This document shows positions 30,001 to 33,000 of a stretch of 54,025 nt of DNA, one piece after another. Position numbers: made by a program. Within the stretch, counting starts at the first letter, position 1. Each line of letters starts with the position of its first letter. Source of the DNA: a virus (Duplodnaviria > Heunggongvirae > Uroviricota > Caudoviricetes); the IMG/VR virus record IMGVR_UViG_2526164690_000030. One strand, written 5' to 3'.

Positions 30001-33000
30001 TTTCGATAGGTGGAAAGGGAGTTGTCTGTGTAGGCGATCTGCTTTCTTGTGGTTCTGTTATCGCCAACGGCGAGGATATTTTTCAGGTTGCATAATGCTT
30101 GATTCAATAGGTGAAGTTAAAGCCTTCAAAATTCTGTCAGATGCCGGTATCTCTACACCAGAATCTATAACCATAAGCCGAGCAGCTTCTGTAAAAGCCT
30201 CATCGCTCGCCAGCGCCATACAGGGAATAGTTCACGCCGATAAAACCTATCCTGATTCTGTTTCGGCCTGGACTACTCAATTGCTTGGCTTTTCTGAACA
30301 GCTCAATGAGGCCAGCAAAGCGTCTTCATTACTGGCTGATTCTCTTTCCCCATACACCAAGCCATCAGAGCTGTTACAGATGAAGATTGGCTGGGAATGC
30401 TACGCAAAAGGTAACGAGCTGACCCCCATACCTGCTTTCGCCCTTGTTGAGGGAATGGGGAATGTTTCCATTCCGCAATCTCTAACGGACGCATTGACGG
30501 CGCTAAAACTTGATGCTCTGAAAACCGCCATGAACGCCATTAACGCAAAAATTGAAGCTGCCGGAAGTGCTGGTGGTGGTGATAGCAATGGTGGACAGGG
30601 TGGTGCTGGGGGCGCTCAGGCTCCAGTCATTACTCAGGATGAAATTGATGCTTTACGGGAAGCAGTGACAGCCGCCGAAGCTTTACTCTCCGAAATTAAC
30701 TCAGCAAGTGAGAGTGTCGTAGCCCTTACAGGTCGCATTAAAACGTCAACCACTCAGGCAACCAAAGGTTTAGAGAACGCTGTCGCCATCACGTTAACTG
30801 GCTCTCTACTGGATGATGCAGTAATGAGTCCGGCAATCAGTTTAATCATGCCACAAGGCGTTATCGATGCGCTCCAAAAGAACACCAAAAAGGAACCATA
30901 GCAACACCACTTAGGCACACAAAAGGATGTAATTTGGTACATGTTTAACACCGAAAATGAACCTGAAGAGGATGGTTTTGAAAAAGATAATTTTGATTGT
31001 AATTGCGCTTTTAGCCATTTCTGGAATTTACCGAACAACGACGGCAGTTATCGAACACATCAGGTATGTCCGATCGCTTGAAGACTCAAAATCACAACTG
31101 GAAAGCACGAACAACACGCTTTCTACCGCATTACAGTTAAGTGAGAACGCTCGCTCAGCCATGCTGACCGAAAACGAAAGAATTAAAGCACTGGAAAAGG
31201 AGTACCAGCGCAAAACAGCAGAACTGAATGCCAACCTAATCAAACAACGAGAGGAAAGCCAGAATGAAATCACTCGCCTTGAAAATGCGTTACGCCGTGC
31301 TGGGATTAACGATGTGCGTGTGCCTGATGACGTTATCAGGATGCAGCGGGAACGGGCAAAAGCCATCAACCAGCGTGCCAGTGAAAATTACCGTAGAAGC
31401 CACCAGCAAGCCGCAGGCAAATCTGATTGATTACTCCCCTTGTTTAGTGCCAGAAGACACGCCAGTGCTGTTAAACAAGTATCCGACATACGCTGAACAG
31501 TTATTCAGCACGATCGACGAATGCAACCAACGAAACGCACTGAATAACCAAAGAAACAGGGAGATTTGGGAAGGGAAGGGGGATCAAGGCTCCTGAAGCC
31601 AGATGTCCTGGCTGTCAGCTTCTTCGAAACCGTGACAGACGTTAAAGTCACTCAAACGATACTGACGCTGACGGCCCCTATTTCGCTCATGCCAATGCAT
31701 ATATCCACCAGCAAATGCCAGCGGACAATCGCTATAGTCTATGTAACCAATACCATTCCCCAAACGTGCTTCGCGCGCACCAGCTTTCCAGGACAGTAGA
31801 AAAGAGTCACGATCCGCCAGCATAACAACAAAATCGTCCGGATCTCCGATACAGTGAAGAATACCTGCCTTACATAACTGCTTGAGCGCTTTTGACTGGC
31901 TCAGGATGTCTTCTCCGTAATACTGAAAACAATCATCAACAACAGCGGGATAGCCTGCCGGGGGATTCAGGCTGGTTGGTATAGCTGACGCGATCGCCAG
32001 CATTAAGCGATATTGTGTTTTTGATGGGTTAACGTGACTCATTTTGTCCCTTGTTTACTCATTGTCGCCATGCATTTTTTAACTCAGGAATATCTGCCAT
32101 TTCAATTAACTTGCGAAGTCCAGCACTGACTTTCCCATTACCAACCATAGCAAGCCAATCTCTTACTGCTTTCGGCATGTAGAGCGTTGCTGTTACCGGC
32201 TCTTCAACCCTGGCAGGACATCCGCATACAGGCCATTTAATTGATTCCATAACTTCGGAGGCCGGAGTGAGGGCGGGGGCATTGAGTATATCTCTACCAG
32301 AAAACTGGATAACGATCCGTTCAGCGAGCGAGAGTATCTCACTTTCGGCAAGAATTGATGCCAACTGCGCCTCAACAAGAAAGCGACTTGTTGTGTTCAG
32401 AGAGTGGCTCTTAGCGCCATTTTTATACGAAACAAAGATTCGATACGCCATAACTCTAATGATTTGTGTTAGAAAACCAAAATTAAATCACATAACAACA
32501 TGAGTGTTAATAGATTTTATTTTGCTAAACCTATTGACTAAATCACAAAGTAGGTATTGTTAGCCCGTCAAAAGAACCTTCACGCCGCGCCCGAATTTAG
32601 GGCTTAACCGTGAATAAAAACATTCAGCCAGCTCGTGATCGCGAGCGCGAGATTATGAATCGGGCGGCAAGCGTCATGGCTATGACCGTCGATCCGACCA
32701 CCGATGCAGCAGGAAACATGATTGCTGACCAGGCAGTAATGATGGAAAACCTGGATAAAGCAATCCAGAAAGTGCCTATGTTTGAAGGCGTAAATCCAGA
32801 GGTCGCTCGTCAGATCACTGGTGGGTGGGCTATGTCTCTGCATGAGTATAAACGTCAACATGGTCATTACCCGGCAAGTGACATCCTGGCGAACGCACAC
32901 ATGGCTCTTGAACGCTTGATGACTGAATGTGCCAGTGATACCCATGAAGGCACGGGTAAGGCAATGTTTGAGTCTGTCGCGCAATCAATGCGTAGCTCTG

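What the first reader, a model, noticed from the sequence alone, without database searches (positions are those of the whole stretch)
32534..32560. Conserved AAATCACAAA element upstream of at least five operons: candidate late-promoter signature
The element AAATCACAAA(C/G)T followed within a few bp by a -10-like hexamer occurs at 13418-13438, 32540-32560 and 48548-48569, with weaker variants at 19271-19282, 29745-29758 and 41173-41193. All are on the plus strand 30-60 bp upstream of morphogenesis or late-looking operons, and two copies share a 15-nt identity. This fits an activator-dependent late promoter class and would place gene 13585 among late functions.
Basis: seen in the sequence. Interest (0 to 1): 0.5.

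Follow-up and report, generated by a model that had tools for sequence, protein, structure and literature searches.

The report
D6-type late promoters of a phage-plasmid
The repeated AAATCACAAA element marks the late-gene promoters of a D6-like (P1-related) phage-plasmid: they sit where phage P1 has its activator-dependent late promoters but use a different recognition box, which appears matched to D6's own diverged activator protein.

Summary
The window is a D6-like P1-family phage-plasmid (backbone 8871-54025) carrying a resistance transposon and an IS10. Six plus-strand sites share AAAT[C/A]ACA[A/T/C][A/T][C/G]T, 3 nt, then a -10 hexamer (nAnnnT). The pattern gives 6 hits against 0.11 expected. 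All six are intergenic, 24-136 nt upstream of mat, gene 7, upfC, gene 23 (capsid), pmgB and R. None has a usable -35. One cited site (29745-29758) is misplaced; the box is at 29766. A weak seventh site lies at 14515, before gene 26. The rest of phage D6 has five more, before the endolysin, portal, holin, darB and ddrB genes. Three of the window's six sites (mat, gene 23, R) sit where P1 has Lpa-dependent late promoters, but the P1 box (ACAAGTGACTT, 4 nt, -10) is different. D6 encodes an Lpa homolog, 31% identical to P1's. It is predicted to be a winged-helix protein, and its recognition helix varies with the box type across the P1, D6 and Citrobacter lineages. No transcription data exist, and lpa lies outside the window. 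This is a new variant of a known kind. Unexpectedly, D6 keeps one perfect P1-type promoter (14434-14454, minus strand) and P1 keeps one D6-type promoter before lydC.

The parts
13428..13448 (+). Late promoter upstream of mat (start codon 13585). Box AAATCACAAACT 13428-13439, -10 CATAAT 13443-13448. Positional counterpart of P1 LPmat. Followed by a 136-nt structured leader.
   Evidence: P1 LPmat; conserved in the Shigella, Enterobacter and Citrobacter relatives
14515..14535 (+). Weak candidate late promoter upstream of gene 26 (start 14567). Box ATTTCACACCCT, -10 TACAGT. The PWM score is at noise level, but the site is invariant in 7 D6-like plasmids and sits 31 nt from the start codon.
   Evidence: the Enterobacter relative has a full box at the same place
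19271..19291 (+). Late promoter upstream of gene 7 (operon 7-24-6-5...). Box AAATCACAATCT, -10 GAAAAT.
   Evidence: orthologous sites
29766..29786 (+). Late promoter upstream of upfC (PAAR-domain gene; operon upfC-upfB-...). Box AAATAACAAAGT, -10 GACAAT.
   Evidence: orthologous sites
32540..32560 (+). Late promoter upstream of gene 23, the major capsid protein (start 32610). Box AAATCACAAAGT, -10 TATTGT. TTGACT abuts the box, giving a 15-bp spacer. Positional counterpart of P1 LP23.
   Evidence: P1 LP23; orthologs
41173..41193 (+). Late promoter upstream of pmgB (operon pmgB-sit-pmgA-bplA-16). Box AAATCACACACT, -10 TATCCT.
   Evidence: orthologs
48548..48568 (+). Late promoter upstream of the tail-fibre operon R-S-U (start 48607). 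Box AAATCACAAACT, -10 CATACT. Preceded by a GC hairpin. Positional counterpart of P1 LPs.
   Evidence: P1 LPs
14434..14454 (-). Heterotypic element: a perfect P1-type late promoter (ACAAGTGACTT, tcat, TAATCT) facing a 44-aa hydrophobic ORF (orf77, 14239-14373, minus strand).

Best explanation
These are the late promoters of a D6-type phage-plasmid. Each has a sigma-70 -10 hexamer but no -35. In place of the -35, a 12-bp box (AAATCACAAACT) spans about -27 to -16 and is centred near -21. Inferred by analogy with P1: the element's own Lpa homolog, a small winged-helix protein made early after derepression, binds this box. Together with the host RNA-polymerase-associated protein SspA, it recruits sigma-70 holoenzyme and so switches on the head, tail, baseplate, tail-fibre and lysis operons late in lytic growth. 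The box differs from P1's because D6's Lpa has a different recognition helix. Shown here: the sites exist, are non-random, sit in front of late operons, lack a -35, are conserved in relatives, and vary with the Lpa lineage. Inferred: that they fire late, and that Lpa is the activator.
For: Statistics. A PWM scan of the whole D6 genome puts its 11 best hits in intergenic DNA (10.5% of the genome), each pointing at a gene 25-137 nt downstream, with a score gap separating them from the remaining hits (12.4 or more versus 10.4 or less). Nine of the eleven were the training sites; the two new ones are before darB and ddrB. The target genes are mat, 7, upfC, 23, pmgB, R, endolysin, portal, holin lydA, darB and ddrB. 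P1 has annotated Lpa-dependent late promoters before mat, prt, lyz, lydA, R, pmgC, 23, 26, pmgL, hot and pacA. The sites have no sigma-70-type -35 and are not called by the consensus promoter scan. A at -10 position 2 and T at position 6 are invariant in 11 of 11 sites. The same sites are present in a Shigella plasmid whose Lpa is 78% identical (12 sites) and in an Enterobacter plasmid with about 59% identical Lpa. A related variant, AAAnnACAnAC[C/T]-N3-TAnnnT, occurs in a Citrobacter plasmid whose Lpa is 37% identical to D6's and 24% to P1's. D6 encodes one Lpa homolog, matching Pfam PF25716 (E 5e-57) and 31% identical to P1 Lpa. Its AlphaFold model (pLDDT 89) is a winged helix-turn-helix followed by a long C-terminal helix. 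Its Foldseek matches are Fur, PadR/LmrR, MecI and forkhead DNA-binding domains. The predicted recognition helix is VTNIIRHF in the D6 group, VTNIVRTF in the Citrobacter group and VYLRLKAI in the P1 group, which parallels the box classes. Early operons in the window carry a different motif, a probable C1 operator. In P1, the literature states that the 9-bp repeat of the 11 late promoters is the Lpa-binding site (PMC10695390).
Against: There is no transcript, start-site or binding evidence for D6 or for this element. lpa lies outside the window, and the exact source plasmid is not in PLSDB, so Lpa's presence in this element is assumed from its relatives. The box is not a palindrome and matches the P1 box at only 3 of 11 aligned positions, so homology of the two boxes is not shown. 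P1-family phages conserve one D6-type box (before lydC), and D6 conserves one P1-type box, with only one Lpa gene per genome. This means box type and resident Lpa type are not strictly one-to-one. The fold matches have weak E-values (3.6e-3 at best). The covariation rests on three lineages.
Confidence: 0.78

Rival explanations
1. Two-activator model. The D6-type box is read by some other factor, phage or host, that is not Lpa. D6's Lpa would keep the P1-type specificity and serve only the single P1-type promoter at 14434-14454. P1 would use the other factor only at lydC.
For: Each family conserves one promoter of the other type. Operons could switch box type one at a time without Lpa ever changing specificity.
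Against: The Citrobacter and Enterobacter relatives keep lpa in the same position but have no P1-type box at all, so their Lpa must have another target. The recognition helix of Lpa differs between the groups exactly as the boxes do. No candidate second activator was identified.
Confidence: 0.1
2. They are ordinary sigma-70 promoters needing no activator. The conserved box would be spacer or discriminator sequence kept by common descent or by duplication of a promoter cassette.
For: A good -10 is present. The gene 23 site has TTGACT abutting the box.
Against: Five of six sites have at most 4 of 6 matches to TTGACA at any spacer from 15 to 19 bp, and the gene 23 spacer is only 15 bp. None is called by the consensus scan. 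Flanks of the copies are unrelated, while seven of the twelve box positions are invariant in 11 of 11 sites. The box is retained in lineages whose flanks have diverged completely.
Confidence: 0.05
3. The box is an operator for a repressor (C1 or another immunity protein) or a site for a host DNA-bending or replication protein (IHF, DnaA, CRP half-site), not an activator site.
For: The box partly resembles the IHF core WATCAANNNNTTR (7 of 9 specified positions in the best copies) and contains the CRP half-site TCACA. These are comparisons with consensus sequences recalled from memory.
Against: A separate motif, aAATTaGTTTTCTAACAc, sits where P1 has C1 operators: before c1, ref, repL, pmgR and the hrdC/dmt region. 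The positions invariant in the box (AAAT, A6, C7, A8, T12) are not the invariant positions of the IHF, DnaA or CRP sites, and the C of ATCA is variable (C/A). The fixed 3-nt distance to a -10 on the gene-proximal side fits a promoter element.
Confidence: 0.05
4. The motif is a chance recurrence of an A-rich word.
For: Single 10-mers with one mismatch are common: 6.5 expected.
Against: 6 hits against 0.11 expected for the full pattern. All are intergenic and co-oriented with the downstream gene. They were recovered with an independent PWM and are conserved in four other lineages.
Confidence: 0.01

Closest known systems
Lpa-dependent late promoters of bacteriophage P1 (LPs, LPsit, LPdar, LP23, LPmat and others; 11 annotated in AF234172)
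   Same: A sigma-70 -10 hexamer, no -35, and a conserved box centred near -21/-22. One promoter heads each morphogenesis or lysis operon, and three of the window's six sites (mat, gene 23, R) are positional counterparts, as are D6's prt, endolysin and holin sites outside the window. An Lpa-family protein (PF25716) is encoded next to pacA.
   Different: The box is AAATCACAAACT followed by 3 nt, against (A)CAAGTGACTT followed by 4 nt. It is not a 9-bp inverted repeat, and only 3 of 11 positions agree when both are aligned on the -10. Lpa is only 31% identical and has a different predicted recognition helix. D6 has additional promoters before gene 7, pmgB and upfC, where plasmid or toxin-antitoxin genes split operons that are continuous in P1.
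Late promoters of P2/P4-type phages (Ogr/Delta-dependent) and of phage Mu (C-dependent) - comparison from general knowledge
   Same: A phage-encoded DNA-binding activator replaces -35 recognition at a set of late promoters that share a phage-specific box.
   Different: Those activator sites lie further upstream: about -55 for Ogr, and over the -35 region for Mu C. The proteins are zinc-finger or Mor/C family proteins, not Lpa-like winged helix. No sequence relationship was found.
PadR/LmrR-like and Fur-like winged-helix regulators (structural neighbours of the Lpa model)
   Same: A winged helix-turn-helix, followed in the PadR type by a long C-terminal helix.
   Different: The similarity is at fold level only (Foldseek E 3.6e-3 at best, 10-17% identity). 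Those proteins are mostly repressors, whereas Lpa acts as an activator with RNA polymerase and SspA in P1.

Membership tests
P1-type (Lpa-dependent) late promoters | Sigma-70-like -10 hexamer | tested here: met
   CATAAT, GAAAAT, GACAAT, TATTGT, TATCCT and CATACT. A at position 2 and T at position 6 are invariant in 11 of 11 D6 sites.
P1-type (Lpa-dependent) late promoters | No recognisable -35 hexamer at 16-18 bp | tested here: met
   The best -35 matches are 2-4 of 6. Gene 23 has TTGACT, but with a 15-bp spacer. None of the sites is called by the consensus scan.
P1-type (Lpa-dependent) late promoters | Conserved 9-bp inverted repeat AAGTnACTT (the '-22 region') 4 nt upstream of the -10 | tested here: not met
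   The box is AAATCACAAACT, 3 nt from the -10, and is not palindromic. Only 3 of 11 positions agree with P1. A P1-trained PWM does not detect any of the six sites. The only shared property is a box centred at about the same position (about -21).
P1-type (Lpa-dependent) late promoters | Located at the head of late (morphogenesis, lysis, packaging) operons | tested here: met
   The window sites lie before mat, 7, upfC, 23, pmgB and R. The rest of D6 has sites before the endolysin, portal, holin, darB and ddrB genes.
P1-type (Lpa-dependent) late promoters | Element encodes an Lpa-family activator | tested here: inconclusive
   D6 and all relatives examined encode one PF25716 protein. There is none in the window, and the source plasmid was not found.
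P1-type (Lpa-dependent) late promoters | Transcription depends on Lpa and host SspA and starts late | not testable with these tools
   No expression data for D6-like elements were available.
Lpa protein family (PF25716) as sequence-specific DNA binder | DNA-binding fold whose recognition surface varies with the box type | tested here: met
   The model is a winged helix-turn-helix with pLDDT 89, and its neighbours are winged-helix domains. Three recognition-helix classes parallel three box classes. This is correlative; binding was not measured.

The most novel reading that the evidence does not exclude
P1-type and D6-type phage-plasmids each keep, under selection, one late promoter of the other family's type in front of a small membrane protein. 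In D6 and its E. coli, Shigella and Salmonella relatives, it is a perfect P1-type promoter before a 44-aa hydrophobic peptide (window 14434-14454, orf77). In P1, SJ46, 813R1 and P7, it is a D6-type promoter before the holin homolog lydC. The most novel reading is reciprocal eavesdropping. The Lpa of a superinfecting or co-resident phage of the other family would switch on a membrane-damaging protein of the resident prophage, causing exclusion, abortive infection or cross-induced lysis. A milder variant is that each Lpa has a secondary specificity, used to time one gene differently.
Probability: 0.2. Interest if true: 0.75.

Novelty: new variant of a known kind. Interest (0 to 1): 0.42.

Why it matters
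It gives a usable late-promoter consensus and an operon map for D6-like phage-plasmids. These are common carriers of resistance genes in E. coli, Salmonella and Shigella; this window itself carries a class 1 integron and Tn21-like region. It also provides a natural specificity-swap pair, P1 Lpa with AAGTGACTT and D6 Lpa with AAATCACAAACT, for working out how this poorly understood activator family reads DNA and works with SspA and RNA polymerase. A clear recognition-helix difference is available to test. The box should improve annotation of late genes in related plasmids. The reciprocal 'foreign' promoters hint at regulatory cross-talk between co-circulating phage-plasmids.

Tried and rejected
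The D6 genome paper (PMC5800970, its DOI and its PMID) and the P1 genome paper (PMC523184) are not held. I therefore could not check whether the D6 consensus was already published. Full-text searches for the motif together with 'late promoter', and for D6 with Lpa and late promoters, found nothing relevant. Neither D6 GenBank record, nor the older immC fragment AY753669, carries promoter features.

The exact source plasmid was sought using the transposon/backbone junction and was not found in PLSDB.

Recent transfer from the other family was rejected as an explanation for the heterotypic promoters. Flanks share no similarity beyond the promoter itself.

A second Lpa paralog was rejected. tblastn finds only one per genome and none in the window.

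Orthology of P1 lydC with D6's holin was rejected as an explanation. D6_30 is closer to LydA (43%) than to LydC (33%).

An Rfam search of the mat leader and the mat-26 spacer found nothing credible.

IHF, CRP, DnaA and C1-operator readings of the box were considered and rejected; see the rival explanations.

The one-mismatch copies at 16231, 31089, 32485, 39543 and 23511(-) were rejected as promoters, because they have no CT/-10 or lie inside genes.

Full report
**What the window is.** Positions 31500-34500 are 100% identical to Escherichia phage D6 (MF356679), a P1-related myovirus whose prophage is a plasmid. The D6-like backbone runs from 8871 to 54025 and is the reverse complement of the D6 record. 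Positions 1-8870 are a Tn21/class 1 integron resistance region, and an IS10 sits at 16278-17597. Most D6 genes in this stretch are annotated by similarity to P1 genes. All the morphogenesis operons run on the window's plus strand.

**The observation.** The exact 10-mer occurs at 13428, 32540 and 48548 on the + strand, and once on the - strand inside a gene.
- Aligning the copies shows a longer, fixed architecture: AAAT[C/A]ACA[A/T/C][A/T][C/G]T, three variable bases, then a hexamer with invariant A at position 2 and T at position 6.
- This pattern has exactly six matches in the window, all on the + strand, against 0.11 expected: 13428, 19271, 29766, 32540, 41173 and 48548.
- Because that pattern was derived from the sites, I ran independent checks. 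A PWM trained only on five D6 sites outside the window ranks five of the six as the best hits in the window. Four of them score above the 95th percentile of the null maximum.
- In an unbiased k-mer count over the D6 genome, AAATCACA is the most widespread intergenic 8-mer.
- The claimed 15-nt identity is real.
- The -10 lies 24-49 nt from the start codon at five sites and 136 nt at mat.

**Where the sites are.** Each heads a plus-strand operon:
- mat(-26-25)
- 7-24-6-5-...
- upfC-upfB-...
- 23-22-21-pmgG-bplB-pmgC-tub
- pmgB-sit-pmgA-bplA-16
- R-S-U

A whole-genome PWM scan of D6 places its 11 best hits in intergenic DNA, which makes up 10.5% of the genome. Each points at a gene 25-137 nt away, and a score gap separates them from the remaining hits. 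Nine of these eleven were the training sites. The two new ones lie before darB and ddrB, alongside the training sites before the endolysin, portal and lydA holin genes. A weak seventh window site, ATTTCACACCCT-gca-TACAGT at 14515, sits 31 nt before gene 26. It is invariant in seven D6-like plasmids, and the Enterobacter relative has a full box at that position.

None of the sites has a usable -35, and none is reported by the sigma-70 consensus scan. The early operon that starts on this strand (ref), the divergent D6_52 operon and the internal hrdC start carry a different motif, aAATTaGTTTTCTAACAc. That motif sits where P1 has C1 operators.

**Comparison with P1.** The P1 record annotates 11 late promoters as a 9-bp '-22 region', 4 nt, then a -10.
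- Extracted, they read (A)CAAGTGACTT-N4-TAnnAT.
- Three of the window's six sites (mat, 23, R) have positional counterparts in P1, as do D6's prt, endolysin and lydA sites outside the window.
- The extra D6 promoters before gene 7 and pmgB occur where toxin-antitoxin or replication genes split operons that are continuous in P1.
- The box itself is different. Aligned on the -10, only 3 of 11 positions agree. The D6 box is not an inverted repeat, and the spacer is 3 nt rather than 4. Both boxes are centred near -21. A P1-trained PWM finds none of the six sites.

**The likely activator.** D6 gene 4, just upstream of pacA, is annotated as the lpa homolog. It is 31% identical to P1 Lpa and matches Pfam PF25716 over its full length.
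- The gene lies outside the window, and each genome has only one.
- The family is small and confined to these phage-plasmids.
- An AlphaFold model built on 31 homologs (pLDDT 89) shows three helices and a beta-hairpin wing, followed by a long C-terminal helix.
- Every Foldseek neighbour is a winged-helix DNA-binding domain: Fur, PadR/LmrR, MecI, forkhead.
- The predicted recognition helix falls into three classes: VTNIIRHF in the D6 group, VTN[I/V]VRTF in the Citrobacter-type group and VYLRLKxI in the P1 group.

The boxes follow the same split:
- The Shigella plasmid (Lpa 78% identical) and the Enterobacter plasmid (about 59%) use the D6 box at orthologous positions.
- The Citrobacter plasmid (Lpa 37% to D6, 24% to P1) uses the related AAAnnACAnAC[C/T]-N3-TAnnnT.
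- P1 uses its own box.

For P1, the literature held here says the repeat is the Lpa-binding site and that Lpa controls the 11 late promoters (PMC10695390; PMC8198154). That sigma-70 holoenzyme and host SspA are also required is my recollection of Hansen et al. 2003, not checked here.

**Mechanism proposed.** After derepression, Lpa is made from an early, C1-controlled promoter. It binds the -27 to -16 box and substitutes for -35 recognition, so that sigma-70 RNA polymerase (with SspA) opens the -10 and transcribes the late operons. The anatomy, the conservation and the protein-box correlation are shown here. Timing, Lpa dependence and binding are inferred.

**Surprises.**
- The window holds one perfect P1-type late promoter, ACAAGTGACTT-tcat-TAATCT, at 14434-14454 on the minus strand (PWM 20.8; the next best hit scores 11.1). 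It faces a 44-aa strongly hydrophobic ORF with a good Shine-Dalgarno sequence. It is invariant in seven D6-like plasmids and shares nothing with P1 except the promoter itself. It is absent from the Citrobacter and Enterobacter relatives.
- Reciprocally, P1 has one D6-type promoter, AAATCACAAAGT-aca-TACCGT, 38 nt before lydC. It is kept in SJ46, 813R1 and P7 (AAATAACAATCT-gaa-TAGGTT), although the flanks have diverged and P1 and P7 LydC are only 30% identical. The literature treats lydC as having a predicted early promoter (PMC9025707). I cannot explain this with one Lpa per genome. Cross-talk between the two families is one reading, and secondary specificity of each Lpa is another.
- The 136-nt mat leader is structured and ends in a strong intrinsic terminator (13533-13551 plus T7). 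Both features are conserved, with compensatory changes, in the distant relatives.

**Novelty and verdict.** The kind of element, Lpa-type late promoters, has been known in P1 for decades. The D6-type box, its spacing and its pairing with a distinct Lpa recognition helix are not annotated in any D6 record, and no paper I could search describes them. The D6 genome paper itself was not available to me, however. I therefore rate this a new variant of a known kind, with moderate interest. The reciprocal heterotypic promoters are the part that could matter most.

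Noticed in passing
window 14434-14454 (-) and 14239-14373 (-): A perfect P1-type late promoter (ACAAGTGACTT-tcat-TAATCT) in a D6-type element. It faces a 44-aa hydrophobic ORF (D6 orf77, phrog_38362). It is invariant in 7 D6-like plasmids and absent from the Citrobacter and Enterobacter relatives. There is no flank homology to P1.
   Followed up: partly
L002 (P1 AF234172) 31571-31591 (-); L011, L012, L013: A D6-type late-promoter box (AAATCACAAAGT-aca-TACCGT) 38 nt upstream of the P1 holin homolog lydC. It is conserved in SJ46, 813R1 and P7 despite diverged flanks and only 30% LydC identity. 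It is not annotated in P1, and the literature assumes an early promoter.
   Followed up: partly
window 13455-13584: The mat leader downstream of the late promoter is about 130 nt, is structured and ends in a strong intrinsic terminator (13533-13551 plus T7) 25 nt before the mat start. Leader and terminator are conserved, with compensatory changes, in the Shigella, Enterobacter and Citrobacter relatives. There is no Rfam match. It could be an attenuator, an antitermination target or a small late RNA.
   Followed up: partly
window 8938 (-), 9588 (+), 22560 (+), 32475 (-): A second intergenic motif, aAATTaGTTTTCTAACAc. TGTTAGAAA is in 10 intergenic segments of D6. It lies where P1 has C1 operators (before c1, ref, repL, pmgR and the hrdC/dmt region), so it is probably the D6 C1 operator.
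   Followed up: partly
window 1-8870 and 16278-17597: A resistance region (Tn3-family transposase and resolvase, intI1, sul1, aadA2/cmlA-type cassettes) inserted next to ref, and an IS10 inserted after gene 25. No PLSDB record has the same junction.
   Followed up: partly
window 42068-45849: The sit gene (tail injection transglycosylase / tape measure) has a 1-nt indel relative to D6. This splits it into ORFs 42068-43354 and 43447-45849. The phage may be defective, or this may be a sequencing error.
   Followed up: partly
L004 (D6) about 4580-4610 (-); Shigella plasmid NZ_CP026818 record coordinates 50599-50619 (-) (L008 10599-10619): A degenerate D6-type box directly upstream of lpa itself (TTTTAACATTCT-cat-TATCAT in D6, AATTAACATACT-gat-TAATAT in the Shigella plasmid), next to a C1-operator-like site. 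This suggests Lpa autoactivation, and late expression of pacA and pacB through the lpa operon rather than through a separate LPpac as in P1.
   Followed up: no
window 32485-32494 and 16231-16240: Additional AAATCACATA copies without the CT or a -10. The first lies 55 nt upstream of the gene 23 promoter, the second next to the IS10 insertion. Their function, if any, is unknown.
   Followed up: no
window 48518-48539: A GC-rich hairpin (CTTCCCCC-gcattt-GGGGGAAG) immediately upstream of the R promoter. It mirrors the hairpin upstream of P1 LPs and is likely the end of the preceding operon, although it lacks a T-run.
   Followed up: no
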